From Scenedesmus sp. PABB004 (lineage: Eukaryota), in the NCBI GenBank assembly GCA_014905635.1, contig JABVCE010000021.1, forward strand, positions 372,001-436,000: DNA of 64,000 bases. The letters run 5' to 3'. The notes under the pieces are model-generated. The model did not search any database. It saw only the letters and a list, made by a program, of their open reading frames with translations, and was not told the origin of the DNA. Shown piece by piece: positions 2,515-64,000 of this stretch. The first letter of the stretch is position 1; every line of letters begins with the position of its first letter. The position numbers were made by a program, and so were the translations under genes.

Positions 2515-4888
2515 ATGCGATGCGTGCAGCAGGCAGGGGCGGGCCGCGCGGCGCGGCAGCGCTGCGCGGCGGCGCCGCAGCACGCGGCGCTGCGGCGGCC
2601 CGCCGCGCGCCAGCTGGCGCGGCCAGCGGCGGCGCTGGAGAGTGCCGGGCGTTGCAGAGCAGACGTCAGTGCAGGCAGCAGGGCGGGCGTCGCCCGTGGT
2701 AGCAGCAGCAGGTGCAGCGACAGCAGGAGCAGCAGCAGCAGCGGCAGCAGCGGCTGCGGCAGCAGCGCGGCGCAGCGGCGCCGGCTGCGAGCGCCGCCGT
2801 GCGGCGCCTGGGGCCGGCCGGGCGGCGGCAGCGGCGCGCCGCCGGGCGACCCCTGGGCGTCGCCGCCGGGCGCGGCGGGGGCCGGCGGCGCGGCCGCGCC
2901 GCCGGCCGGCACGGAGCAGCCCGGCGGCGGCGCGCCGGGCGCGCTGGACAGCTACGACCCCTGGGACGACGCGCGGTCGCCCGACGGCCCGCGGGCGGCG
3001 CGCCGGCGTACGAGGCGACCGACTGGGGCTGGGACGGCGCCGGGCAGGACTGGGACCCCGCCGCGGGGCTCGCGCCGGAGCAGCTGGCCGACCTGGAGCG
3101 CGACTACCAGGAGCAGCTCGATCGCCGCAGGCGCGCCGGGGCGGGGCGGCCGGGAGAATTCAGCGCGCGCGACGCAGGGAGGGGGGGAGCGCCTCCAGGG
3201 GGAGGGCGGGAGGGCGGGGGGCAGGCGGCGCGCGGCGCGCGGCGCCGCAGCCGGCGCCGCTGCCAACGCCGCTGCCGCTGCCGCGCAGGGGGCTGGAGAA
3301 CCCGCCGCGCGACAAGTGGATCACGCCGCTGCTGGACTGGCAGTCCATCTACGGCGCGTTTGACCCCGACCAGTCGCGCACGGAGGACACGATGGCCGAC
3401 GAGGCGCTCACAAACAAGGAGGAGAGCCGGTGGGTGTGGGTGGGTGGGGGAGGGGGGGGAGGGGGAGGGGTCGCGCAGGAGGGACGCGCGCGGCGCGGCG
3501 GCCGGGCGGCGCGCCGCGGCGCCGACGCTCACGGCCGGCCGCCGCCGCCGCCGCCGCTGCGGCGCCGCAGCGAGGCGCTCGCGTTTGCGGGGCGGCTGGT
3601 CGTAATCCCCCTCATCACCGGCGCGCTCATCAGCCGCGCCATCACCGACCCCGTGCTCTCCTTCAGCCTGCAGGCGCGCCCGCCGCGCCACGGGCCCGCC
3701 CGCGCCGCCGGCGCCGCCGCGCAGCGGGGCCCTGCTAAACCCCGCCTGCGTCCCCCCCCCCCCCCCACACCCCCACCCCCACCCACCCACCCATTCGCAG
3801 AACAACCCCGACGCGTTCAGCATGACGACGCGGCAGAAGATTGAGGGCGCGTCCGCGGTGCACCTGGAGGAGACGCGCGTGAAGATGATGGTCGCCATCG
3901 GCCAGGCGCCGCCGCTCGACGACGCGGGCATGCTCGCGCACCTGCACGAGTACGCGCGCGAGGTGAGCGAGAAGGACGCCCCCCGGCGCGGCGCGCGGCG
4001 CGGGAGAGCGGCGCGCCTCGCGCGCCCCGCCCGGCCACGCACCATCGCAGCGCATGACGTGCGGGCACTCCCCCGCCCTTTCCCCCCCCATGCCGCGGCG
4101 CCTGGCCGTCTGCCACACACACGCACACACACACGCACGCGCGCACGCACGCAGGTGCAGGAGGAGGAGCGGAGCAAGAACGAGGCCAACCTCATGACGC
4201 TCGTGAGCGACAGCATCAGCGCGATGGCCTTCTTCGCGCTCTTCGTCCGCGACACGCCCGGCCGCACCGCGCTCTTCTGCACCATCGGCCGCCTCTTCGA
4301 GGGGCTCAGCGACATCGCCAAGGCGCGGGCGCAGCGGCGCGGGCGCAGCAGCGGCGGCGCCCGCCGCGCACCGTCACGCTCGCTGCACACGCTCGCGCAC
4401 TCACGCTGAACGCACGCGCACGCACTGAACATGCACGCGCACGCGCTGAACACGCACGCGCAGGCGGTGATGATCATCCTCGTCGCCGACACGCTGCTGG
4501 GCTACCACTCGGAGGAGGGTGCGTGGGGCACGCCGCCGCGCCCGCCCGCGCACCGCGCAGCGCCCGCGCCGCCACCACGCTCCGTCCGCCGCGCGCTCCA
4601 CCGCATTTTCCCACCACGCACACACACAGCACGCTCAATCACGTGCAGACACACAATCTCAACGCAAGCGCTCTCACGCGCGCCGCCGCCGCCGCCGCAG
4701 GCTGGACGGGGTTCCTGGACCTGCTGCTGGGCCACTACGGCATCGAGGTGGAGGAGGAGAACATCGTTCTCTTCGTGGGCATCATTCCCATCGCGATAGA
4801 CGTGCTTTTCAAGTATTGGATATTCATCGGGCTCAACCGCATCTCGCCCGGCGCCGTCGTGACGATCAAGCAGCTCGACCGCCACTGA
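2515..4888 (+). CDS. Nuclear-encoded CemA/Ycf10-family plastid envelope membrane protein; multi-exon, apparent 1-nt frameshift near 2988
   Basis: Arg/Ser/Ala-rich transit-peptide-like N-terminus. C-terminal exons give LFEGLSDIAK|AVMIILVADTLLGYHSEEG|WTGFLDLLLGHYGI..FVGIIPIAIDVLFKYWIFIGLNRISPGAV, matching the CemA signature (D.F.G.HS..GW...D..FKYWIF..LNR.SP). Confidence 0.85.
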
Positions 4889-4934
4889 TCGCGTGTTTTT
4901 GGGCTGGCGAGCCGCCGAGAGTGCCTACTCCACG

Positions 4935-4989
4935 GCGCCAGGCGGGGCCGCGCTCTGAGGCGAGCGCGCGAGGTCGGCTGTCCCGCCCA

Positions 4990-5028
<39 letters not shown>

Positions 5029-5650
5029 GGTTCACCTCACTGCGTGGCCTGCTGAGCTGCACGCCGTGTGAGTTTCTGTGCTGATCGCTGTGCGGTGCGC
5101 GAGGCAGCCCAGAAACTCACAACCGGCGCAACTCCCGCCAGCGAGCGGCGGCCACACCCCCATCGCGCCCCTGCTGTCCCGGGACACTCCCCGCGTCTCC
5201 CGGCCGCGACGAGCCGGCGTTTGCGGCCGCAGTCGCGCGCGAGGGTCGGGAGCATCGCGACCGCGACCGACACCAGCTCGCGACGCCGCCCCGCCCCGGC
5301 ATGCAATGACAAGCCTCCAGCGCTGCCGGTCAGGAGCTCCCCGCCGCAGCGCAGTGCCGACGCTCCGCTGGCCGGCGGCGGCGGTGAAGCAGCGGCGACG
5401 CGCGCCGCTCCGCGCCGCGCTGCCGTCGGCCGCCGAGCGGCCGCCCAGCCGCTCCGGTCGCTCCACTGGTCGCTCCACCGGTCCACGCATGACGCAGTGC
5501 GGCGACGCGCGCGAGCCGCTGCTGCACCGGGAGCAGCAGCGCACGGAGCGCTCGTCGCCGCCGCCGCCGCCGGAGCCGCCAGCACCGCGGCCGCCGCGGG
5601 CCGACTGGGGCAGCCTGCGGCTGCACAAGGGCGCCAAGGTCTTCCCCGCC
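4935..5650 (+). pseudogene. Diverged, truncated duplicate of the upstream region and exon 1 of the DiT gene (counterpart ~9350-10182)
   Basis: 5306-5650 encodes MTSLQRCRSGAPRRSAVPTLRWP...DAREPLL...ADWGSLRLHKGAKVFPA, nearly the same as 9839-10182. Similarity stops abruptly after KVFPA. Confidence 0.85.
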
Positions 5651-5679
5651 GCGGTGGCCGGCGGCGGCGGTGAAGCAGC

Positions 5680-5897
5680 GGCAGGGCGGGGCGGGCCGGG
5701 CGCGGGGCGCGCGTCGCGCGTCGCGACGCGCGCGAGGTTCGGCTGCTGGCGGCGGCGGCGCCGCCGCCTGGTTCGCCTGGTTCGCCTCACTGCGTGTGGG
5801 CTGAGCCGGTTGAGTTGTTGTGCGCCGCACAGTCCAGTTGGTAATAATCGGCGCCAGGCGGGGCCGCGCCAGCCGTCGCGGGCGCCCGCTGGCAGCG
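5680..5897 (+). repeat. Left copy of a ~210 bp near-identical direct repeat (right copy 9296-9504)
   Basis: ggcagggcggggcgggccggg...gagccggttgagttgttgtgcgccgcacagtccagttggtaataatcgg...ctggcagcg occurs at both sites; the left copy has an extra 9-bp tggttcgcc. Confidence 0.95.
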
Positions 5898-5973
5898 TCG
5901 CTCGGCCGCGACGAGCCGGCGGTTGCGGTCGTGACGATCAAGCAGCTCGACCGCCACTGAGTCATGCCTGACG

Positions 5974-6077
5974 GAAAATTAATTAAATTTTCGGTTCGGT
6001 AGACGGCAGTTGCGCGGTTCGGTAGACGGCAGTTTCGCTGCGCTCGCGCAGCCGCGGTACCGCCGACCGGTCGGCGG
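5974..6077. repeat. AT-rich imperfect palindrome, 20-bp direct repeat pair and 18-bp perfect palindrome
   Basis: gaaaattaattaaattttc (5974-5992); cggttcggtagacggcagtt at 5992-6011 and 6015-6034; ccgccgaccggtcggcgg (6060-6077). Confidence 0.9.
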
Positions 6078-6813
6078 CGACAGCTGCGCGTCGAGGCGCT
6101 CACGCCAGCCCTGCTCGCGCTGGGCGTGCTGCTGCTCAGTTTGCCATGCGGTTAGCAGCAGAGTGCACCGCTCCAGTCCGGGGGCGCGGCGCGGCGGCGG
6201 GCGCGGCGCGCAGACTGGTTTCGCGGCGGCCGCGCACAGCGCGGCGGCGCGCGCACGCTGGCGCGCGGCGGTCAGGCCGCGCGCGCTTTGCGCGCAGAAC
6301 GGTGGCGCGCCGGCCGCCCGCGGCGCGGCGCCGCAGGTTCTGTCGTCCTGTCACAAGGCAGCTGCCCGAGCGCCGTTGCGGCCGCCGGAGGCGCGAGGGG
6401 CCGCCGCACCGCCCACTCGCCCTCGCTCACGTCACGCGCACACCACGGCGCCCGTGCCCGCCCCTCCCAGGGCCGGCGCGCGCGCAGCAGAGGGCGCGCC
6501 GCCGCGAGCGCCGGCGCTCGCCGCCGCCACGCCCGCCTTCCGCGCCGCCCCGCCGGCCACACGCGGCTGATCACGGTGCGCAGAGGCGCCTGGCGCGGCG
6601 CGGTGGGCGGGCGGCGCGGGGCTGCGCGGCGGCGGGCGGTCATCGGCGCTGTCTGCCGCAGCGCGCCGCCGCCCCGGGCCGCCGCGCCGCGCCGCCCACT
6701 TCCCCCTGACGCACTCCCCGCTCCCGATACGCCCACAGGCCCGCCGCGCCCGCCCCTCCCAGGCGCTCCCGCGCGGCGGGGCCTTCAACTCCTGCGCACG
6801 CGCCGCGACCACC

Positions 6814-9094
6814 ATGGCGTCGCGCAGCTCCATCAGCAGCGACAGCGCCAGCAGCGCCGCTGCCAGCAGCAGCGACGACGACGGCGGCGGCGCCTACTAC
6901 GTGTCGCCCGCCAAGCTGCGCGCCACGAGCGCGGTGCGGGGGTTGGGCCCGCGGCGGCGTGCAGGCTGGCAGCGCGCCTGCCGCCGCCAGTCGGCCCAGC
7001 CCCTGACCACACACCCTTCACACCCCTTCCTCTGATGCGCGCGCGCAGGGCGACGGCGGCCCGCGCGCGCGCGCGGCCGGCGGAGGCGCCGGCACCAGCA
7101 GCGCCGCCGGGCCCAGCGGCGACAGCAGCGCCCAGCCGCGCAAGCGCAGCACGCCGGCCTACCTGCGCGACGAGCAGGAGCCCATCCCGCCTGCGGCCCC
7201 GCGCGGCGCGCGCGGCGCCGCGCGCGTGGCGGCCAAGCTCGCCGCGCAGGCGGAGCGCGCGGCGGCGGGCCTGGCGGCGTTCTTCTCCGAGCGCTGGGCG
7301 TACCGCACCGACGTGAGCAGCGATTGCGCGCGCCGCGCGCGGGCGCGCTGCCGTGGCAGCAGGCCCTGCCAGCACGTGCACCCCACGCCCTCCCGCGCGC
7401 GCGCGCGCGCGCGCCCAGAACGGCGAGGTCGCGCTGGTGTACGGCGGGCCGGGGCTTCCCGAGGACGTGCGCGCCAAGGCGCGCGCGCTCATCACGGCGC
7501 TGGGCTACAAGCGCGGGCGCGGCGGCTGGAAGGTGAGGCGCGCGCGCACGCAGGGGCCCTGCGCCGCGGCGATGCGCAGCCCAAAGGCGACGCGCTCCTC
7601 CAGCAGCCTCACCCTCATACACACGTCTGCGCCAACAGGCCGGCAAGGGGCACTTCCACCGCAACACAGACCAGCTGCTGAGGACGCTCGAGGGCCGCCA
7701 GCTGCTGCACCTCGTCAAGCCCATCATCGACGACCTCAAGGCGCAGACCGGCTACATCGGCGCCGACGCTGAGCTGGTGGTGCAAGCGGGCAACCAACAG
7801 CCCGACCACCGCGACACGTTCACCGGCGCCGACTGGTTTGAGCGGGTGAGGCTGCGGCGGCGGCCCGGCGGCGGCGGTGCAGCGCTCCAGCTAGCGTTGC
7901 GCCCACCTCCTGCTCCAACGCCGACTTGCCGCCAACGCGCGCGCGCAGGCTGGCGTCGAGCTGCCGGCGCAGGGCGCGGCCGGCGCGCCCGCGCTGGCGG
8001 CGGCGGCAGGCGCGGCGGGCGCGCCCGCGCTGGCGGCGGCGGCAGGCGCGGCGGGCGCGCCCGCGCTGGCGGCGGCGGCAGGCGCGTCGGGCGCGCCCAT
8101 GCTGGCAGCGGCGGCAGGCGCGGCGGGCGCGGCCGCGCTGGGCGGCGAGGGCGAGCTGCCCAGCTCCTACAAGCTCGAGCGCGTGCCTGGTGGCTTCCGC
8201 ATTCTGCTGGACCTGGAGCCCACCGGGAAGCGCTCCGTGATCTACAAGATCCTGCGCGGCCGCAACCTCCACCAGGTGTGGCGCACGCGCGCGCAGCAAC
8301 GCCGCCTCAGGGGCTTATGCGGGCGCTGCGCAGCCCCCCACCCCCTCTCACTCAAAAGAAAACGGCGCTCCCGCTGGCGCAGGTCAAGAAGATGCGGTGG
8401 GGCATGATCGCGATGAACGCCGCTGCCGCCGGCTCGGGCGGCTGGCGCCACGGCCGCCCCATGCACCACGGCCGCTACGGCGACGGCGGCACGGTGCGCT
8501 GCGCTGCGCTGCGCGCCAGCCGCTGCGCACAGCCGCCGCCGCGCACGCCGCGCGCGCCCACCCCAGGCACCACCTCGCCCATCCGCGCAGATGAGCATCG
8601 ACGTGGCGCTGCCGGTTCTGGCGGGGCCGGAGAAGCAGGGCGGCGTGCCCGGCGCGTCGCTGCAGACCAAGGCCTGGTCCGTCTTCAACCACGGCGGCCA
8701 CGGCGCCTCGCTCAACGACGCGCCGGCCGTGGGCGGGCGGCGCCGCGGCGCGGGCAAGCCGCCGGCTGCAGAGGGCGCGGCTGCACGCGCCGCGGCCGCC
8801 GCCGCCGCGGCCGCCGCCGCCGCCGCCGCGGCGGCCGCCGCCGCGGCGCAGGCCGAGCTGGCCAGCGACGAGGAGGACCACGAGGAGGAGGAGCCGGAGC
8901 AGCACTGCTGGTACTGCGGCACCACCCGCACGCCGCGCTTCCGGCGCGTCGGCCGCCACTGGTGGTGCAACGCCTGCGCCGTCCAGCAGCGCAAGGCCCC
9001 GGCGGCCTTCGACGTCGCGAGCCGCCCCTGGAAGGGGTGCGGCGACGACGGCTGCGCGGGCTGCCTGCACCCGGCGGCGGTGGCGGACAGCTAG
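6814..9094 (+). CDS. Putative 2OG-Fe(II)/AlkB-like dioxygenase domain fused to a C-terminal GATA-like zinc finger (about 7 exons)
   Basis: GT-AG introns at ~6934-7048, 7313-7418, 7533-7638, 7846-7948, 8276-8382 and 8494-8590 join one frame: ..AELVVQAGNQQPDHRD..FRILLDLEPTGKRSVIYK..WGMIAMN..MHHGRYGDGGTMSIDVAL..CWYCGTTRTPRFRRVGRHWWCNAC. The Zn finger is clear; the dioxygenase call rests only on motif order. Confidence 0.6.
7973..8140 (+). repeat. 36-bp coding tandem repeat ([12 protein letters not shown], about 4.5 copies)
   Basis: Unit ggcgcggcgggcgcgcccgcgctggcggcggcggca repeated in frame inside an exon. Confidence 0.9.
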
Positions 9095-9105
9095 GTACCT
9101 AGCTG
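9088..9105. repeat. 18-bp perfect palindrome overlapping the TAG stop codon
   Basis: cagctaggtacctagctg; the stop is at 9092-9094. Confidence 0.95.
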
Positions 9106-9108
9106 CCC

Positions 9109-9228
9109 GCCGCCCGCCGCGCTGCCTGGCCGCCGCCTGTCTGCGCCCGTGCTACCGGTAGCACGGGCGCCCGTGCTACCGGTAGCACGGGCGCAGACAG
9201 GCGGCGGCCAGGCAGCGCGGCGGGCGGC
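9109..9228. repeat. Perfect 120-bp palindrome containing two nested 24-bp palindromes, followed by 20-bp tandem repeats to ~9260
   Basis: Arm 9109-9144, gcccgtgctaccggtagcacgggc twice (9145-9168, 9169-9192), then the reverse-complement arm 9193-9228. Followed by repeats of ggcggccaggcagcgcggcg. Confidence 0.97.
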
Positions 9229-9295
9229 CAGGCAGCGCGGCGGGCGGCCAGGCAGCGTGGGCGGGCGAGAGCGGGCGCCAGGGCAGTGGAGGAGT

Positions 9296-9504
9296 GGCAG
9301 GGCGGGGCGGGCCGGGCGCGGGGCGCGCGTCGCGCGTCGCGACGCGCGCGAGGTTCGGCTGCTGGCGGCGGCGGCGCCGCCGCCTGGTTCGCCTCACTGC
9401 GTGTGGGCTGAGCCGGTTGAGTTGTTGTGCGCCGCACAGTCCAGTTGGTAATAATCGGCGCCAGGCGGGGCCGCGCCAGCCGTCGCGGGCGCCCGCTGGC
9501 AGCG
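9296..9504 (+). repeat. Right copy of the ~210 bp direct repeat (left copy 5680-5897)
   Basis: Base-by-base match to 5680-5897 apart from one 9-bp indel. Confidence 0.95.
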
Positions 9505-9838
9505 GCCAGGGGGAGCTGCACGGTGCTTGCCGGGCGGTCTGCCGCGTCGCAGTAGGTGCAGAGGTCGGCCGGGTTCCCGTGGGATGTGCTGATCGCTGTG
9601 CGCTGCGCGAGGCTGTGCGGGGCACCTGCTGACAGAACCCAGCAGCGGCGGAACGTAACCGCAGCGAGCGGCGGCCGCACGCCAGTCGCAGTCTCCCGCC
9701 TGCCCCGGGACGCTGCCTGCGTCGCTCGGCCGCGACGAGCCGGCGGTTGCGGCCGCAGTCGCGCGCGAGGGTTGCGTCGGGAGCGGGCGGCCCTCGCGAC
9801 GCCAGCCCTCTCGCGACGCCGCCCCGCCCCGGCATGCA

Positions 9839-11782
9839 ATGACAAGCCTCCAGCGCTGCCGGTCAGGAGCTCCCCGCCGCAGCGCAGCGCCGACGCTCCG
9901 CTGGCCGGCGGCGGCGGCGCAGCAGCGGCGCAGCCGGCGCGCGCCGCTCCGCGCCGCGCTGCCGTCGGCCGCCGAGCGGCCGCCCAGCCGCTCCGGTCGG
10001 TCGACCAGTCCGTCAGGCATGACTCAGTCCGGCGACGCGCGCGAGCCGCTGCTGCCGGTGCTGCAGCGGGAGCAGCAGCGCGCGGAGCGCTCGTCGCCGC
10101 CGCCGGAGCCGCCGGAGCCGCGGCCGCCGCCGGCGGACTGGGGCAGCCTGCGGCTGCACAAGGGCGCCAAGGTCTTCCCCGCCACGGCCGCGGTGGGGCT
10201 GGGGCTGTTCCTGCGCTTCGCCGTGCCCACGCCGGACGGCGTCACCGAGCAGGTGCGCGGCCTGCCCCCGCTCACTGGGGGCCTCGCCCGCCCCGGCGCT
10301 CGCCGGCGCGCGCGCTGACCGCCGCCCGCCGACCCCCGCCGCCGCGCAGGGCTGGTCGCTGCTGGCGCTCTTCGCGACGATGGTGTCGGGCCTCGTGTTT
10401 GCGCCGCTGCCGACGGGCGCGTGGGCGCTGCTCGGCGCGGCGGTCGGCGTCGCGGGGCACGTGCTGACGTTTGAGGAGATGTTTGCCGCCAGCAACTCGT
10501 GCATCGTGTGGATGGTCGTCGCGTCCTTCTTCCTCGCAAAGGCGCGTGCGTGTGTGCTGCGTGCACAGCTGCGGCCGGCGCGCGGCGGGCGGCGCCGGCA
10601 GCGCGGCAGCGGCCGGCGGGCGGGGCGGCAGCGCGCGGGTGGCCCCCTTCGCCGCAGCGCGCTGCCCGAGCCCGCCGCCGCCGCCGCGGGCGCCGGCGCG
10701 CAGGGGTTTGAGAAGACCGGCCTCGGCGCACGCATCGCCAACACGCTGCTCACGCGCGTCGGCGGCGGCACGCTCGGCCTCGCGGTCGGCCTCGCGGGCG
10801 CGGAGGCGCTGCTGAGCCCGGTCATGCCGTCGACGACGTCCCGCGCGGCGGGCATCTTCATGCCCGTCATCTCAAGCGTCTCCGCCGCGGCCGGCAGCCT
10901 CCCGGGTGCGCGCCGCTGGACCCGCAGGGCTGCCGCGCGGCGCTGCTAGCTGCAGGCGCGGCGCGGGGCGGCGGCGCTGCGCGTGCCGGCGCGCCGACGC
11001 GGCCGCCGCCGCCGGCGCCCCGCCGTGCAGGGCAGCCAAGCCGGAAGCGCCTCGGCGCGTACCTGACTCAGAGCCAGTTCCAGTCTTCGGTCCACTCCTC
11101 CAACTTTGTGATGACGGCGGCGGCGCAGAACCTGCTGTGCCTGCAGCTCGCGGGCGCCGTCGGCGTCGCGCTGCCCGACCCGTTCGCGCTCTGGCTGACC
11201 GGCTCCTGCGTGCCCGCGGCGCTGGGTGCGCGGCGCCGGCGCGCCCGTAGCACGCGCAGCGCGCGCGGCGGCGCCCCCCTGCCCGCTCACGTCGCTCGCC
11301 CGGGGCCACCCGCCCGCGCGCGGTGGCGCGGGGCCGCCGCAGGCGTCGTGCTGACGCCGTGGCTGCTGTTCAAGCTGTGGCCGCCCGAGGTCACGTCCAC
11401 GCCTGACGCACCCGCGGCGGCGGCGGCGCGGCTGGCTGAGATGGGGCCGCTCTCGGTCGACGAGGCCATCATGGCCGCCACGATGCTCGGCGCGGTCGGC
11501 CTCTGGGTGCGCGCCACGCGAGCGCGCCGCCGCCGCCGCGCGGGGCAGGCCACGCGCGCGCGCACGTACGCACCTGTTGCGGCGGCCCGCCGCCGGGGCC
11601 GACGCGACGCGCGGCGTGCTCCGCGGCGCCGCGCAGGTGTGCGGCGGCTCGCTGGGCATCGAGCCTGTCACGACCGCCCTGCTCGCGCTGGGCGTGCTGC
11701 TGCTCACGGGCGTGCTGTCCTGGAAGGACTGCCTCTCAGAGAACCCGCCCTGGGTGGGCGCGCCGCCGCCGCCCGCGCGCAC

Positions 11783-11817
<35 letters not shown>

Positions 11818-12455
11818 GCCCCTCGCTCACCCCGCCTCGCCGCCCGCCCGCCCCGCCTCCCCGCCGTCATCGCCATCGCCACATCGCCGCTCGCAGGACA
11901 CGCTCGTCTGGTTCACCATATTAATCAGCATGTCGCTGGGCCTGCAGTCGGGGGGCGTGATCGGCGCGTTTTCGGGCTGGGCGGGCGGGCACCTCGCGGC
12001 CCTGAGCCTTCCCTGGCCGGCGCTCTTTGCGGGCCTTCACGCCGTGTTCTTCGTGGTGCACTACGCCTTTGCCTCGCAGACCGCCCACGTCGGCGCGCTG
12101 TACGCGCCCTTCCTGGCGCTCATGCTCGGCGCGGGTGCGCGGTGCTGCGCGCGGGGGCCGCCTGCTGGCGGGCGGGCGCTGCCGCGGCGCCGTCCCGACC
12201 GCCGCCGCGCCGCGCGCGCGCGCGCGCGTGCGCGCAGGCGTGCCGCCGCAGCTCGCGGCGATGAGCCTCGCCTACAACGTCGGTCTCTTTGGAAGCCTCA
12301 CCCACTACGCGAGCGGGCAGGCCGCGGTCTACACCGGCGCGGGCTTCCTGAGCACGCGCGACGTGTTTGTGCAGGGCGCCGCCGCGGCGGCCGCCAACCT
12401 GCTGCTCTGGGGCGGCGTCGGCATGGCCTGGTGGAAGGTGCTCGGCTGGTGGTGA
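9839..12455 (+). CDS. DASS-family dicarboxylate transporter (2-oxoglutarate/malate translocator, DiT-like); multi-exon
   Basis: GWSLLALFATMVSGLVFAPLPTGAWA, WMVVASFFLAK|GFEKTGLGARIA, LSPVMPSTTSRAAGIFMP, TAAAQNLLC, HYAFASQTAHVGALY, LTHYASGQA, WGGVGMAWWKVLGWW-stop. Confidence 0.93.
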
Positions 12456-12742
12456 TGGTGGGGCATTGCCGCGCGTGCGGACCGATTCTTTGGGCGTGAT
12501 GCACGCGGGGCGTTCATTCGTGCGGCGGCCGCGGTTTGGCGGCGGCCGCGGTTTTTTGCGGTTTTCTGAGCTTCGCCCGCGCCGCGGCTCCAGCGCTTCG
12601 GACGCTGGACGTATGCCTGCGCGCCGTGTGCGGACGCCTGCCGCGACGAGGGGACGCGCGGGCGCGCCGTGAAGGCAGCGAAAGGAACGAGCCGCACCAG
12701 GCCCGCGCCGCCCGGCGGCCGCCGCCAGCCCCGCGCAGCACC

Positions 12743-38500: not shown

Positions 38501-41004
38501 CCGCCGCCGCCGCGGGCGCCGCCGCCGCCGCCGCCGCAGGCGACCACGGGCCTGCACGTGAGCGAGGACGTGTTTGGTGGGTACGGCCTGATGCTGCGCG
38601 GGCGCGGCGTGGCGTACGTCGACTACATCGCCGTCGGCAAGGGCCGCGACATGGGCTTCGAGTCGATCAACACCTTTGAGGCCAAGGCGCGTGCGCACTC
38701 GGGCGCCGCTCCGCGGCGCGGCCAGGGCCGCGCCGCGCGCCGTGCGCGCCGCCGGCCGTTCCCCGGCGCCACGCGCGGCCGCCGCCACCCCGGGCGCGCC
38801 GCGCGCAACCCCTTGCAGATCGCGGGCGGCAACGGCGAGCAGGTCATCAGCCGCGACGTGCGGCGGCTGGGCGAGTGCCTCGACTTCACGCGGCTCATGA
38901 CCTTTTATCACACCGGTGAGGCTGCCAGCTAGCTAGCTGGCAGGGCCCTTGGCGAGGAGGGCGACGGGGCTGGCGCGGCAGCGGCAACGCGCCCGCCGCG
39001 CGTCGGGGCGCCCCGCAGGCAACGGATATTTCATCAACACCGCGCTCACGATGCTCGGCGTGCACGCGACGCTGTGGGCGCTGCTGCTGCTCGTGTTTGA
39101 GCGCGCGTACGGCCCCGAGGGCGCCGCGCTGCGGGGCTGGCTCGGCGGGCTGCAGCTGCTGCAGCTCGGCAGCCTCGGCATCGTGGTGCACTGGATCACG
39201 CTCGCCCTGGAGGTGGGGCTGCTCCGCAGCGTCGCGGCGCTGCTGCGCCAGCTGCTGCAAGGTGTGTCCGCGCGCGCGCGCGCGCGGCGCGGCGCGCGGC
39301 GCGCCGCGCGCGCCGCCGCGCGCGCCGCCGGGAGCGGAGCGACCGAGCTGCTGAGCTGCGTGCGCGCACCACCCCCGCAGGGAGCCTCATGTTTGCTGTC
39401 TTCCGCGCCCAGACCAGCGCGTCCGCGTTCACGTCCGACCTGCTCTTCGGCGGCGCGCGCTACGCCGGGACCGGGCGCGGCTACACGCTCGCGCACACAC
39501 CCTTCCGCGAGCTCTGGCGCCGGTGCGCGCGCTGCGCCCGGCGCACGCTTTCCCGCCCACCCGCCCGTGCCGTCCTCCCCGCCCGTGCCGTCCTGCCCGC
39601 CTGCCCACACGCCCGCCGCCCTCGCGGCCCGGCAGGTACGGTCGGTCTCACATGTACTTTGCCGCGGTGCTGCTGCAGTATGCGGTCGCCGTTGTGGCGG
39701 CGGGGCACGTCGGCGGCGGCCGGCAGCTGCTCGTCCTCTGGGCGCCGCTCGTGGTGGTGGTCAGCCTGCTCTTCGCGCCCTTCTGGTTCACGCCCTTTGC
39801 CTTCCGCACCAAGACAGTGCTGGTGCGCCGGCGCGGCAGGCAGGGGGCTGCACGTTCCCGCGCCTCACGCCTCCCACGCGCGGCGCCGCCGCCGCCCACA
39901 CGCGCCACACGCCGCCGCCGTGACACCGGCAGGCCGACATCGACGCGACGCAGCGCTGGTTCGCGTCGCCCAGCACCACCGACAGCTGGCGCGCCGCGTA
40001 CGCGGCGTGGTGGGGCGCCGCGACGGGCGCGGGCGGGCGGCAGACGGGGCGCCTCGGCGCGTGCCTGCGCGCGCACGCGGCGAAGCTGCCCTCGCTCGTG
40101 CTGCTGCTCGCGGTCGCCACGCGCGTCGACCTGCGCGAGGACAGCCGGCTGCCAAAGTATGGGGTGCCCCTCGTCCTCGCGGGTGCGGCGGCGCCGGCGG
40201 CGCGGCCCGCACGGCCGGGCGGCTGGCCGGCTGCAGCGCGCGCCGCTGACCGCGCGCGCGCCGCCGACCGCGCGGGCGCCGCGCCGCTGCCGCCGCTCTG
40301 GCCCGCGCGCGCGCAGGCGGCGTGGTGCTCATGGTCGCCGCGATCCAGGCCAGCCGCGCCGTCGCGGCGCGCTCCGCGCTGCGCCACGCGTGGCCGCGCC
40401 TCGCGAGCAACGCCGCCGGCGTCGCGCTCGTGGGCGGGCTCGCGGCGTCGGGCTTTGCGACCACCGGCCGCGCCGGCGAGCTCGGCAACCCGCTGCTCGT
40501 CCTGTTTGGCCTCGTGCTGCTGCTCCGCCTGCTGCCGCTGTCCGCGTACAACCCCCTCCTGCGCCGTCCGCTGGCCGGCCTCGCGGCGGGCGTCGCGTAC
40601 GCGGCCGACGCGGCGCTCGCGTCGCTGCTGCTCGGCGGCGCGTTCGTGCTGAGCCTGTTCGACCTCCTCACCGGCCTGCAGGCGCGCGCCGGCCGCCGGC
40701 AGCCGGCGCCGCCGCCGCCGCCGCGGCGCACGCGGCGCCCGCGGCCGGCCGCCTGTGTTGACCGCGCCGCCACTTGCCCCGCCGCCGCCCCCGCCACCCC
40801 CGCCACCCCGCCGCCGCTGCCGCCCGCGTCCGCCGCCAGGCGCAGCTGCTGTTCAACCACCGCTTTGCGCGGCAGGTCATGGCGGACGCGAGCCTGGAGA
40901 CGAGCGAGGTGCCGGGGCTGATCACGCAGGCCCTAGAGCTGCAGCGCCGCCTTCGCCGCGCGGAGCGGGATCGCGCGCCCGGCGGGGGCGGGCCCGCGCG
41001 GTGA
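31227..41004 (+). CDS. Callose synthase / 1,3-beta-glucan synthase (GT48), paralog 2; many exons, start uncertain (could lie near 31014)
   Basis: AFGFQ, ALIYAEAANLRHTPHLCFLLHHIM, LGYDDFDEA, KTFVEARS, SFAASL, TTLVPHYD, WANFVER, WASCRGQLLARTVRGL, LRVAYVD, ILGEGKPENQNHA, QTIDCNQD, RFHYGHPD, SEDVFGG, GNGEQVISRD, FGGARYAGTGRG, YGRSH, QLLFNHRFAR. Confidence 0.93.
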
Positions 41005-50832: not shown

Positions 50833-55844
<5,012 letters not shown>

Positions 55845-61596: not shown

Positions 61597-63348
61597 TCAG
61601 CGCCGCAACCGCGCCGCCTTGACGCCGCCGCCGCCCGCGGCGGCCGCCTTGGCGGCCTTGGAGCCCGGCCCAGCGGGGTGCAGCGTGACGCTGACCAGCC
61701 CCCCGTCGTCGCCGTCGCGCGCGAGCCCCCCAGACGAGGCGAGCGCCGCGCCGGCGCGGCCCGCGGCCGCGGCGGCCGCCGCGCGGCGCTGCGCCTTGTC
61801 CAACACAGCGCGGAAGGTGGCCAGGTACGGCTCCCACAGCGGCGGCGGCGACTCCAGGTCGCTCTGGGCGTTTGGCGGCGGCGCGGGCGGCGAGTCGGCG
61901 CGAGCGCGCGGGCGCGGAGCTGGGCGCGCTGGCTCGGTGCCCTGCGCCAGTCGCGCCGCCGCCGCCGCGGCGCACCTTGCTGATGCCGGCGAGGACGCCC
62001 ACCTCCTGCGGGCTGGGCTCGCGCGGCAGCGACGGCAAGCTCCAGCCCTGCGCCGCACCGCGGGGCAGCAGGCGGCGCGTCACGCGGCGGCGCAGCCGCG
62101 CCGCGGCGAGGCGCGCGCCCACGGCCGCCGCGCCGCGCGCGCCCGCGCGCGCGCGCGCACCAGCTGCGCGAGCGACTTGTTGCCCTTGCGCTGGTTACAG
62201 GCCATGCATGCTGTCACGAGGTTGGTCCAGCTGTTGGCCCCGCCGCGGCAGACCGGGACCACATGGTCCAGCGTGAGCTCGCGGTCGGAGCCGCAGTACC
62301 TGGCGCGGGCGGACGTGGCGGCGCAGGTGAGGCGCGGGCGAGGCGCGGGCGAGGCGCGGGTGAGGCGCGGGCGAGTGGCGCCCCGCGCCGGCCGCCCCCG
62401 CGCCGGGCCGCCCCCCCCCCCCCCGCGGCGGCTCACTGGCAGCGGTGGTGGTCGCGCAGCATCACGTTCTTGCGCGTGAGGCTCAGCCGGCCGGCAAAGT
62501 CGTGCACGTCGACAAACGCGCGCACGCGCAGCACCGCGGGCAGCGGGTGGGCCTTGTACGCGCTGTACGCGTAGCCGCTCGCGTGGTACTCGAGCACGTC
62601 GACCTTGCCGCCCTCGTCCATGACGACCGCGCGGAACCAGCTGACCACGTTGACCGGGAGGTAGCGCGAGTCGAGCACGAGGCACCTGCGCACAGGCGCG
62701 TGCGCGTGTGCGCGGCCGTTTGCGTTTGCGGCCGTTTTTGTTTGCGTGCGACTGCTTGCGCGCGATTGATGGCGCCGGCGGCGGCGGCGCCCGCGGCGGC
62801 GCCCGCAGCGGCGCGGCGCGAGTGCGGGGCGCGCCCCCGCACGCACGCACGCGCGCGCACCTGTAGGCGGACGAGCGGCCCGCGCCCGGCGCGCCGCGCG
62901 GCGCGTCGAGCTCCTCGTCCGAGGAGAAGCAGTCGGGCTCGCGCGGGGCCGCGAGCGGCGCGGCGGGGACGATGTTGTTGGCCACGCCGGCGCCAAAGCC
63001 GAGCGGCGGGCTGCCGCTGAAGCCGAGCGGCGGGTTGGCCAGCGGCAGCGGCGCCGCCGCCGGCGTCTGCTGCTGCTGCTGCCGCGGCGCGGCGGTCGAC
63101 ACCGCGGCGCCCGCGCCGGCGCCGGCCACGGCGACGCCCGCGGCGGGCGCGCCCTTCTTGGGCTTGCCCGCCTTGGCCGGCGCCGGCGCGCCCGCGCCCG
63201 CGGCGGCGCCGCTGCCGCCCAGCACGCGCAGCAGCGAGCGCCGGCCGCGCGGCGCGAGCGCCGCCGCCTGCCGCGGCGCACGCAACGGCGCCGGCGCCGC
63301 GGCGCCGCCGCTGCATACCCGCGCGGGCGGGCCGCGCAGCAGCAGCAT
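61597..63348 (-). CDS. HNH endonuclease-family protein (McrA-like Zn-binding type), probably plastid-targeted; multi-exon
   Basis: [82 protein letters not shown]. Confidence 0.92.
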
Positions 63349-64000
63349 CGTCGCCTGCCTGCGGACGAGAGAGCAGCGGCGGAGCAGCAGCGGTTGGCGC
63401 CGCGCGCGCGCCGCGGTCGCGGTCGCCCCAGGCGCTTTCTCGCGTGCACTCGGGCGAGATCTGGGACGAGCGGCGGGCCGGGAGAGTGGCTGGCGGGCCG
63501 CGACCCGGGTTGCGCGCCAGGCTGGAGCAGCGTGCGCTGCTCGTGGGGCGCATGCAGCCGCCCTGCAGGCCTGCGCAGCACTCGTGCACGCCGCCACGGC
63601 CAGGCCGCGCGCCGTCGCGCAGCGGCACGGGCTGTCGCGGCTGCTGCGCGCCAGGCAGCGCGCTCGACATCGCGCGCCAAGTTTGAGCCCCCCGCGTCCT
63701 GCCGCCTGGCCACGCCGCTGCATGAGGCTGCGCTGAACCGCGTGACTGTCACGGAGCTGCGTGTGCGCCATCCGCCAGCGCACGCGGGGCGCGCGCACCT
63801 TTGTGAGCGACGCACGGCGCGGCGCCTCACGCGCGCTGCTACGGGCGTGGCTGCCTGATCCGAGCTGACGCGAGCTGCGGGGTGCGCGGGTGCTGTGCGT
63901 TAAAGAAGGCCAGTTCGGTGGGCGGGGGTTAGCGGCGGCGCGCGACGTCAAACGCGACGATTCTTGATGCCCATGTACTGCCCCAGCGCGCGCAGCCGCT

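What the first reader, a model, noticed from the sequence alone, without database searches (positions are those of the whole stretch)
9088..9260. Perfect 120-bp nested palindrome able to fold as a T/Y-shaped hairpin right after a stop codon
Seen: architecture A(36)-P(24)-P(24)-A'(36), where P is itself a perfect palindrome, so the strand can form one long hairpin or a T-shape. An 18-bp palindrome overlaps the TAG just upstream, and 20-bp tandem copies of the arm follow. Established: T-shaped hairpins of about this size are the architecture of parvoviral/AAV terminal repeats, and perfect spacerless palindromes are normally unstable. Inference: either a functional terminus or origin of a hairpin-replicating element, a scar of repeated fold-back synthesis, or a 3'UTR dsRNA source of small RNAs.
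Basis: partly seen in the sequence, partly recalled or inferred. Interest (0 to 1): 0.8.

Follow-up and report, generated by a model that had tools for sequence, protein, structure and literature searches.

The report
Young fold-back palindrome after a stop codon
A perfect 120-base DNA palindrome just after the end of a zinc-finger gene in a very GC-rich, alga-like genome is real in the sequence, but it looks like a recent DNA-copying accident and not like the end of a virus-like element.

Summary
Window 9109-9228 is a 120-nt, 100% complementary, spacerless palindrome built A(36)-P(24)-P(24)-A'(36). An 18-bp perfect palindrome lies over the TAG stop at 9092-9094, and three 20-nt tandem units follow. 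In 100 dinucleotide shuffles the longest arm was 18 nt, against 60 here.

The parvoviral reading fails. The best fold is a plain 58-bp hairpin; the T-shape is 13.8 (DNA) to 18.1 (RNA) kcal/mol worse. There is only one copy in 64 kb. No Rep or transposase domain lies nearby, and the flanks are cellular, intron-bearing genes.

The cluster has no paralogue and sits 20 nt from a mosaic of local segmental duplications. In one metagenome run, a roughly 1.3%-diverged relative carries the right arm exactly, but its contig departs 8 nt left of the centre.

Best reading (0.6): a young, possibly strain-specific inverted duplication made by replication template switching. If transcribed, it would give a perfect 3'UTR hairpin. 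Function, expression and raw-read support could not be tested. Interest is low to moderate.

The parts
8417..9094 (+). Open frame (probably the last exon) of a gene with a divergent GATA-type zinc finger (CX2C-X16-CX2C, about 8906-8995), ending in TAG 9092-9094
   Evidence: translation. GC3 = 1.00 over 8861-9091. Pfam GATA is only E = 0.04, 14 bits against a cut-off of 26.8. phmmer against 1.84 billion representatives gave 29 hits at E <= 1e-3, the best 7.1e-9, all on the finger. 8 of 8 top hits scanned carry PF00320 above threshold.
9079..9114 (.). Older quasi-palindrome over the stop codon: 18-nt arms with 16 of 18 paired, perfect 18-bp core 9088-9105, centre 9096/9097. The right arm is a reverse-complement copy of the last codons plus the stop.
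   Evidence: (I25), (9082-9111 self-inverted, 93%)
9109..9228 (.). Perfect spacerless 120-bp palindrome, centre 9168/9169
   Evidence: 100% over 120. With one 1-nt/2-nt bulge it extends six more pairs to 9102-9236 (97% over 136 columns).
9109..9144 (.). Arm A (36 nt); holds one reverse-complement copy of the 20-mer at 9115-9134
9145..9168 (.). P copy 1, a 24-bp perfect palindrome, centre 9156/9157
9169..9192 (.). P copy 2, identical to copy 1, centre 9180/9181
9193..9228 (.). Arm A' (36 nt), reverse complement of A
9203..9262 (+). Three tandem 20-nt units (100%, 100%, 85%). The first unit and 6 nt of the second lie inside A'; the rest runs beyond the palindrome.
   Evidence: (D4)
9282..9504 (+). 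Local repeat 'Y', 94.4% identical to 5666-5897; it starts 20 nt after the tandem units
5655..5960 (+). Mosaic of four short templated patches joined head to tail: 28 nt (= 5369-5396), 232 nt (~9282-9504), 42 nt (~9711-9752) and 33 nt (= 4856-4888). It is context showing serial local copying at this locus.

Best explanation
The palindrome cluster is a young product of local DNA-copying errors: replication or repair template switching, also called fold-back synthesis. It lies in the 3' flank of a GATA-like zinc-finger gene of a very GC-rich, alga-like eukaryote.

Inferred sequence of events:
1. A short palindrome already existed at the present centre.
2. A nascent strand switched template there and copied the neighbouring roughly 60 nt (P + A' + 6 nt of the next 20-mer) in reverse complement. 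This extended the short palindrome to 120 bp in one step.
3. The 24-bp P, the 36-bp quasi-palindrome over the stop codon and the 20-nt tandem units are earlier or later events of the same kind, either fold-back or slippage.

No dedicated function is needed to explain it. If the stretch is transcribed as 3'UTR, the RNA would carry a perfect 58-bp hairpin. In green algae such a hairpin can be cut by Dicer-like enzymes, so an incidental effect on the host mRNA is possible.

Shown here: the structure, its non-random nature, its uniqueness in the data at hand, the preferred fold and the rearranged neighbourhood. Inferred: the mechanism, the order of events, the young age and the 3'UTR location.
For: 1. 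The arms are exact reverse complements over 60 nt with no spacer. A single reverse-complement copying event gives exactly this. [quoted passage not shown] Passages of PMC5453318 describe the four-point model, in which 31% of high-confidence human-chimp events create an inverted repeat.
2. Several independent centres lie within 184 nt (9096/97, 9156/57, 9168/69, 9180/81), together with 20-nt and 24-nt tandem copies. This points to repeated local miscopying.
3. The oldest-looking palindrome is a reverse-complement copy of the gene's own last codons and has since diverged at 2 of 18 pairs. The 120-mer has 0 mismatches, so it is younger.
4. The neighbourhood is a patchwork of locally copied pieces. 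They run from 28 to 543 alignment columns at 84-100% identity, and include a head-to-tail chain of four patches at 5655-5960. Repeat Y starts 20 nt after the cluster.
5. The arms have no paralogue. P occurs only in the palindrome within the window. It has 0 exact matches in metagenome contigs, viral contigs and genome contigs, and there is no blastn match in plasmids or phages.
6. Run X1 holds a close relative: a 238-nt contig on 7704-7941 with 3 differences. Its 104-nt contig matches 9161-9232 exactly over 72 nt, then continues for 32 nt unlike the window. A 50-nt contig equals 9203-9252. The right end at 9232 and the 50-nt contig are what a k=31 graph of the window predicts. The departure at 9160/9161 is not predicted. 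It fits an allele that has the right arm and only an 8-nt-arm palindrome at the centre.
7. There is no sign of a mobile or viral element.
Against: - No outgroup or ancestral sequence could be obtained, so the defining test of a template-switch mutation (derived state against ancestral state) was not done. No relative of the gene was found in metagenome contigs: 576 pattern matches, none confirmed.
- The X1 evidence is one contig of depth 2 whose letters I could not see. No record bridges the centre with 31 nt on both sides. That contig could instead mean the window's left arm is an assembly error.
- A 60-nt copied fragment is long compared with the short-range events described in the passages I read.
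- A perfect spacerless palindrome of this length is expected to be unstable (passages of PMC7999016). Its persistence could therefore reflect selection or homogenisation, not only youth.
- Whether the genome holds other copies is unknown, because no genome is held for this window.
Confidence: 0.6

Rival explanations
1. Selected 3'UTR RNA hairpin. The palindrome is kept because the mRNA of the GATA-like regulator folds into a perfect 58-bp stem that a Dicer-like enzyme cuts. This would lower the mRNA in cis and yield small RNAs, as for UTR-embedded precursors in Chlamydomonas.
For: The palindrome starts 15 nt after the stop codon on the coding strand. The RNA minimum-free-energy fold is one uninterrupted hairpin: -151.5 kcal/mol for the 120-mer, and z = -15.0 against 200 shuffles for 9075-9270. 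Passages of PMC4817775 report 13 C. reinhardtii mRNAs with miRNA structures in their UTRs, 26 with siRNA precursors in UTRs, and direct DCL3 cleavage of such mRNAs. The abstract of PMC10710096 says template switching supplies such hairpins.
Against: There is no evidence of transcription, of a poly(A) site or of small RNAs. The Rfam matches are generic hairpin hits far below threshold (mir-214 at 33.4 bits against 66.7). No conservation could be shown. The one relative seen appears to lack the left arm. Whether this organism has a Dicer is not known. Even if the RNA is cut, that would be a consequence, not proof of selection.
Confidence: 0.12
2. Assembly or sequencing artefact. The left arm does not exist in the organism, and the assembler folded the path back through a short real palindrome.
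For: The only public run found does not bridge the centre. Its contig leaves the window's sequence at 9160/9161, 7 nt before the turn-round point that a k=31 graph of the window predicts at 9154. Hairpins of this strength are hard to sequence.
Against: Both flanks are unique and collinear: the coding end lies on the left, and on the right come repeat Y, then the promoter-like stretch and first exon of the transporter gene. Fold-back chimeras normally continue as the reverse complement of what came before, and this sequence does not. X1 is a roughly 1.3%-diverged relative, not the same clone, so a difference there does not contradict the window. The right arm, P and the tandem units are reproduced exactly in X1.
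Confidence: 0.12
3. Small fold-back or MITE-like transposable element, whose arms contain short tandem subrepeats as fold-back elements do.
For: It is a compact element made only of inverted arms. The 20-nt subrepeats run about 1.7 copies on the left and 3 on the right, with the outer copies degenerate.
Against: There is no second copy in 64 kb and no copy in three public collections. The 10 nt on either side share no direct repeat, so there is no target-site duplication. No transposase domain lies nearby. No terminal-inverted-repeat relation exists with the other end of the gene segment. The rest of the genome could not be searched.
Confidence: 0.05
4. Terminal hairpin or replication origin of a hairpin-replicating (parvovirus/AAV-like or hairpin-telomere) element integrated here.
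For: The size (120 nt) and the A-x-x-A' layout recall the 125-nt T-shaped part of the AAV terminal repeat (passages of PMC5511163).
Against: The T-shape is disfavoured by 13.8 (DNA) and 18.1 (RNA) kcal/mol, because the two inner palindromes are identical where AAV has distinct B-B' and C-C'. There is no second terminus in 64 kb. No Rep/NS1 or capsid domain was found in 53 + 51 ORFs. GAGCGAGC occurs 8 times in the window but never in 9000-9300. No match was found in viral contigs. The flanks are cellular genes.
Confidence: 0.01

Closest known systems
Short-range template-switch mutations (Ripley quasi-palindrome model; four-point model, PMC5453318; hairpins created in one event, PMC10710096)
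   Same: One arm is an exact reverse-complement copy of adjacent sequence. A short pre-existing palindrome sits at the centre. Other local copying errors cluster around it, and there is no associated gene.
   Different: The arm is 60 nt and there is no spacer, so it lies at the long end of what those papers describe in the parts I read. Several nested rounds occur at one site. The ancestral state was not observed here.
AAV / parvoviral inverted terminal repeat (PMC5511163, passages)
   Same: GC-rich, about 120-125 nt self-complementary, with an outer stem plus two inner small palindromes.
   Different: The inner palindromes are identical, so the whole is a perfect palindrome whose best fold is a plain hairpin. 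There is no GAGC-repeat Rep-binding element, no D region that can be recognised, no second copy and no rep/cap genes. It is embedded between cellular genes.
UTR-embedded miRNA/siRNA hairpins of Chlamydomonas mRNAs cut by DCL3 (PMC4817775, passages)
   Same: A long fold-back in what is probably the 3'UTR of a protein-coding gene of a green-alga-like organism.
   Different: No small RNAs, no transcript and no Dicer gene have been shown here. The stem is perfect and the loop is minimal.
Long genomic palindromes as fragile sites, such as human PATRRs (review PMC7999016, passages)
   Same: A spacerless, perfect or near-perfect palindrome above 100 bp, expected to extrude hairpins or cruciforms and to be polymorphic.
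   Different: It is GC-rich, not AT-rich, and no rearrangement breakpoint has been mapped to it.
Fold-back (FB-type) transposons and MITEs (recalled, not from a call)
   Same: Made only of inverted arms that contain short tandem subrepeats.
   Different: No target-site duplication, and no second copy in any data searched.

Membership tests
AAV/parvoviral ITR | Present at both ends of a linear genome of a few kb that encodes Rep/NS1 and capsid | tested here: not met
   P occurs only inside this one palindrome in 64 kb. No Rep, NS1, capsid or transposase family was found in 53 ORFs (>=110 aa) overlapping 5500-12500 or in 51 ORFs (>=380 aa, plus two shorter) across the window.
AAV/parvoviral ITR | T-shaped fold from two different inner palindromes (B-B', C-C') on an A-A' stem (PMC5511163) | tested here: not met
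   The inner palindromes are identical. Simple hairpin -98.7 against T-shape -84.9 kcal/mol (DNA), and -151.5 against -133.4 (RNA). The minimum-free-energy fold of 9075-9270 is the simple hairpin.
AAV/parvoviral ITR | Rep-binding element, a GAGC tandem repeat in the A stem (motif as printed in PMC5511163) | tested here: not met
   GAGCGAGC has 8 matches in the window, none between 9000 and 9300. This is the AAV2 motif only; other parvoviruses differ.
AAV/parvoviral ITR | Terminal resolution site and D region nicked by Rep | not testable with these tools
   Needs the cognate Rep protein and a biochemical assay.
Template-switch mutation product | The inserted fragment is the exact reverse complement of nearby sequence | tested here: met
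   60-nt arms, 100% complementary, adjacent.
Template-switch mutation product | A sister lineage or allele shows the state before the event | tested here: inconclusive
   A relative in run X1 matches 9161-9232 exactly, then differs for 32 nt. This is one contig of depth 2, and its letters were not visible. No other relative was found.
Fold-back/MITE transposon | Multiple dispersed copies | tested here: inconclusive
   None in the 64-kb window and none in three collections, but the organism's genome is not held.
Fold-back/MITE transposon | Target-site duplication at both ends | tested here: not met
   The flanks 9099-9108 and 9229-9238 share no direct repeat.
UTR hairpin precursor of small RNAs (Chlamydomonas type) | Lies in a transcribed UTR and folds into a long stem | tested here: inconclusive
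   The fold is shown, and the position 15 nt after the stop is shown. Transcription is not shown.
UTR hairpin precursor of small RNAs (Chlamydomonas type) | 20-24-nt small RNAs map to the stem and depend on Dicer | not testable with these tools
   No RNA run is listed for this sequence.
Known Rfam RNA family | Score at or above the family's gathering threshold | tested here: not met
   The best hit is mir-214 at 33.4 bits against 66.7. All 4 matches lie below threshold.

The most novel reading that the evidence does not exclude
The palindrome is a selected cis-regulatory device. It would be a perfect 58-bp hairpin directly behind the stop codon of a transcription-factor gene, letting a Dicer-like enzyme destroy the mRNA and release small RNAs. 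It would have been born in one step by template switching and would still be polymorphic between strains, which would make it a regulatory hairpin caught at birth.
Probability: 0.1. Interest if true: 0.5.

Novelty: new member of a known kind. Interest (0 to 1): 0.25.

Why it matters
As a single locus it matters little. It is one more example of replication template switching writing a perfect hairpin into non-coding DNA.

It is somewhat unusual in three ways: its length (60-nt arms, no spacer), its nesting, and its place directly behind a stop codon in a genome stretch of about 79% G+C.

If the hint from run X1 holds, that a close relative has the right arm but not the left, the locus would be a natural before-and-after pair for such an event. 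If the hairpin is transcribed, it would show how a gene acquires a Dicer-sensitive 3'UTR in one mutational step.

Tried and rejected
- Whole-genome search for P: not possible, because no genome is held for the window.
- Exact search for P in metagenome contigs, viral contigs and genome contigs: 0 loci each.
- Relatives of the gene's C-terminal 77 residues in metagenome contigs: 576 pattern matches, none confirmed by tblastn.
- blastn of 9079-9282 against plasmids and phages: no match.
- Public runs: only one was listed, X1, a metagenome holding 0.06 of the sampled words. No RNA holder was listed. Laid as contigs, no record bridges the palindrome centre, and several bins have no cover.
- Rfam at E <= 1: only sub-threshold generic hairpin hits.
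- Terminal-inverted-repeat relation between the two ends of the gene segment (5931-6300 against 8991-9300): only short GC-rich chance matches.
- Co-occurrence of GGTACC- and ACCGGT-centred palindromes at both ends of the segment: after listing all 5 and 12 sites, no shared context, so treated as chance.
- The 22-bp palindrome over a TAG at 38922-38943 looked like a parallel. It follows a GTGAG splice-donor-like site inside the glucan-synthase gene, so it is probably intronic.
- Earlier notes of this scan: nothing for this genome or its look-alikes. The sequence look-up gave one unrelated hit sharing 2 of 49 words.
Full report
**The observation**

- The repeat finder reports arms 9109-9168 and 9169-9228: 60 nt, 100% complementary, nothing between them.
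- The inner 48 nt are two identical copies of a 24-nt unit P (9145-9168, 9169-9192), and P is itself a perfect palindrome.
- The outer 36 nt on each side are A (9109-9144) and A' (9193-9228).
- Upstream, an 18-bp perfect palindrome (9088-9105) covers the TAG at 9092-9094. With two mismatches it extends to 18-nt arms, 9079-9096 / 9097-9114 (I25).
- Downstream, a 20-nt unit occurs three times in tandem: 9203-9222 and 9223-9242 identical, 9243-9262 at 85%. Its reverse complement lies once in A.
- Allowing one small bulge, the big palindrome gains six more pairs, to 9102-9236.

**Chance**

In 100 dinucleotide-preserving shuffles of the window the longest perfect arm averaged 10.9 nt and never exceeded 18. 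The observed arm is 60 nt. The window as a whole also has more short palindromes than its shuffles: 39 centres with arms of at least 9 nt against a mean of 6.7. Most of these are CG-type low-complexity runs.

**Setting**

The window is about 79% G+C throughout. No prokaryotic genome is held for it. Its long frames match eukaryotic families, several of them split over frames as by introns:
- Nop14
- 1,3-beta-glucan synthase
- PHO4
- KAS III
- a sodium:sulfate-symporter-type transporter

I read it as a plastid-bearing, green-alga-like eukaryote. That is an inference.

The frame ending at TAG 9092-9094 is coding: G+C at codon positions 1/2/3 is 0.70/0.60/1.00 over 8861-9091, and the periodicity vanishes downstream. 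It encodes a CX2C-X16-CX2C finger.
- The finger is below Pfam's GATA threshold (E = 0.04).
- Its only relatives among 1.84 billion representative proteins are 29 weak hits on the finger, the best at 7.1e-9 and none at 1e-10 or better.
- All 8 of the top hits that I scanned are GATA-finger proteins.

The next gene on the same strand is the transporter, whose first exon lies near 9900-10190. The palindrome therefore lies 15 nt after a stop codon, most likely in the 3'UTR. No transcript data could be had.

**The fold**

For both DNA and RNA the minimum-free-energy structure of 9075-9270 is one uninterrupted 58-bp hairpin with a 4-nt loop, plus a small hairpin from the stop-codon palindrome. The z-scores are -16.5 and -15.0 against 200 shuffles.

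Scoring the two shapes on the 120-mer gives:
- DNA: -98.7 kcal/mol (hairpin) against -84.9 (T-shape)
- RNA: -151.5 against -133.4

The T-shape can be drawn only because P is palindromic. Because both P copies are identical they also pair with each other, and that pairing wins. In the AAV terminal repeat the two inner palindromes differ, so the T is the only full pairing (passages of PMC5511163).

**The virus-like reading**

This reading finds no support.
- P occurs nowhere else in 64 kb, even with 3 mismatches.
- None of 53 frames of at least 110 aa overlapping 5500-12500 matches Rep, NS1, capsid or transposase families. The same holds for the 51 long frames scanned window-wide.
- The Rep-binding GAGC repeat printed in PMC5511163 is absent from the stem.
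- P has no exact match in viral contigs.

**The mobile-element reading**

This reading is also weak.
- The flanks show no target-site duplication.
- The other end of the gene segment has no matching terminal repeat.
- No copy exists in metagenome, viral or prokaryotic collections, nor in plasmids or phages.
- The organism's own genome could not be searched, so dispersed copies are not excluded.

**What the neighbourhood shows**

A self-comparison of 4400-10600 reveals that the locus is a patchwork of local copies.
- 5139-5654 matches 9662-10187: 84% over 543 columns. This is the upstream region and first exon of the transporter, so 5490-5654 is a pseudo-first-exon.
- 5666-5897 matches 9282-9504: 94.4% over 232 columns.
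- 5887-5928 matches 9711-9752: 95%.
- 4856-4888, the last codons and stop of the upstream gene, recurs exactly at 5928-5960.
- 5369-5396 recurs exactly at 5655-5682.

Thus 5655-5960 is a chain of four short patches (28, 232, 42 and 33 nt) copied from places within a few kb. This is the pattern expected of serial template switching during replication or break repair (an inference; the mechanisms are named in PMC5453318). The palindrome cluster itself has no paralogue. It ends 20 nt before the copy of the 232-nt repeat at 9282.

**The one look at reads**

Only one public run was listed, X1, a metagenome holding 6% of the sampled words. Laid as contigs, it holds a close relative and not the same clone: a 238-nt contig lies on 7704-7941 with 3 differences.

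Two contigs touch the cluster.
- A 50-nt contig equals 9203-9252.
- A 104-nt contig matches 9161-9232 without a difference over 72 nt, then runs on for 32 nt unlike the stretch laid.

I simulated a k=31 graph of the window. It predicts breaks at 31-mer starts 9198, 9203/9207 and 9223/9227, and a self-loop at 9153/9154.
- The 50-nt contig is one turn of the 20-nt repeat cycle.
- The right end of the other contig at 9232 is the predicted boundary.
- Its departure at 9160/9161, only 8 nt left of the centre, is not predicted.

The simplest reading is that the relative has P, A' and the tandem units but a different sequence where the window has the left arm. It would then have only a 16-bp palindrome at the present centre, which is the kind of seed from which a template switch would extend a long perfect palindrome.

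This rests on one contig of depth 2 whose letters I could not see. It equally allows that the window's left arm is an assembly error. No contig bridges the centre.

**Mechanism**

I commit to the following at 0.6. It is a young inverted duplication by template switching, seeded at a short central palindrome. About 60 nt (P + A' + 6 nt) were copied in reverse complement in a single event.
- Before or after that event came the fold-back that made P and the slippage that made the 20-nt tandem.
- An older fold-back copied the last codons and the stop. It is the only palindrome here that has since picked up mismatches (2 of 18 pairs).
- Template switching is documented to create perfect hairpins in one step (abstract of PMC10710096; passages of PMC5453318).
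- Longer arms, higher identity and absent spacers raise the risk of breakage (passages of PMC7999016). This fits a young, polymorphic element better than an old one.

If the stretch is transcribed, the mRNA carries a perfect 58-bp stem. In Chlamydomonas such UTR fold-backs are cut directly by DCL3 (passages of PMC4817775). A cis effect on the host mRNA is therefore a reasonable but untested consequence.

**Rivals**

- Selected 3'UTR hairpin: 0.12
- Assembly artefact: 0.12
- Fold-back/MITE element: 0.05
- Hairpin-replicon terminus: 0.01

**Earlier notes of this scan**

Notes on other algal genomes reached the same kind of reading for shorter perfect palindromes of 36-71 nt. They are unchecked AI notes on other DNA and add no independent evidence. 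So the scan has seen this class before.

**Verdict**

This is a new member of a known kind, of low to moderate interest.

**Papers and what I saw of them**

- PMC5453318, PMC7999016, PMC4817775 and PMC5511163: passages found by term search.
- PMC10710096: abstract, introduction and outline.
- Other titles: search listing only.

Noticed in passing
window 4856-5960 and 9282-10187: Local segmental mosaic. The upstream region and first exon of the transporter gene are duplicated 4.5 kb upstream (5139-5654 against 9662-10187, 84%), leaving a pseudo-first-exon at about 5490-5654. Next to it, four short templated patches are chained head to tail at 5655-5960.
   Followed up: partly
window 5975-5991: AAAATTAATTAAATTTT is the only run of 10 or more A/T bases in the whole 64-kb window of about 79% G+C. 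It lies just after the patch chain and just before a 24-nt-period tandem pair (about 5993-6035) and an 18-bp perfect palindrome at 6060-6077. It might be a rearrangement junction or a promoter element; it is unexplained.
   Followed up: no
whole window: G+C is 73-81% in every 2-kb bin, while the genes are eukaryotic and intron-bearing. That is extremely high for a nuclear genome. GC3 reaches 1.00 in the 77 codons checked.
   Followed up: no
window 8000-8147: A 36-nt tandem repeat, 4.1 copies at 91% matches, lies within an open frame upstream of the zinc-finger exon and encodes an Ala/Gly-rich repeat.
   Followed up: no
window 5715-5768 and 9331-9384: Two 18-bp perfect palindromes (a CGCGCGTCGCGACGCGCG type and a GGCGGCGGCGCCGCCGCC type) recur 36 nt apart in both copies of repeat Y. 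They are explained by the duplication.
   Followed up: yes
window 38922-38943: A 22-bp perfect palindrome containing TAG follows a GTGAG donor-like site inside the 1,3-beta-glucan synthase gene. It is probably intronic.
   Followed up: partly
window 53754-53846: Inverted repeat with 34-nt arms, 91% complementary, and a 25-nt loop.
   Followed up: no
window 62083-63999 (-): A long open frame with an HNH endonuclease domain near its C-terminus (PF14279 at 3e-12, PF01844 at 2.8e-11).
   Followed up: no
window 2880-2907: A 28-bp perfect GC-only palindrome, the longest in the window outside the finding.
   Followed up: no
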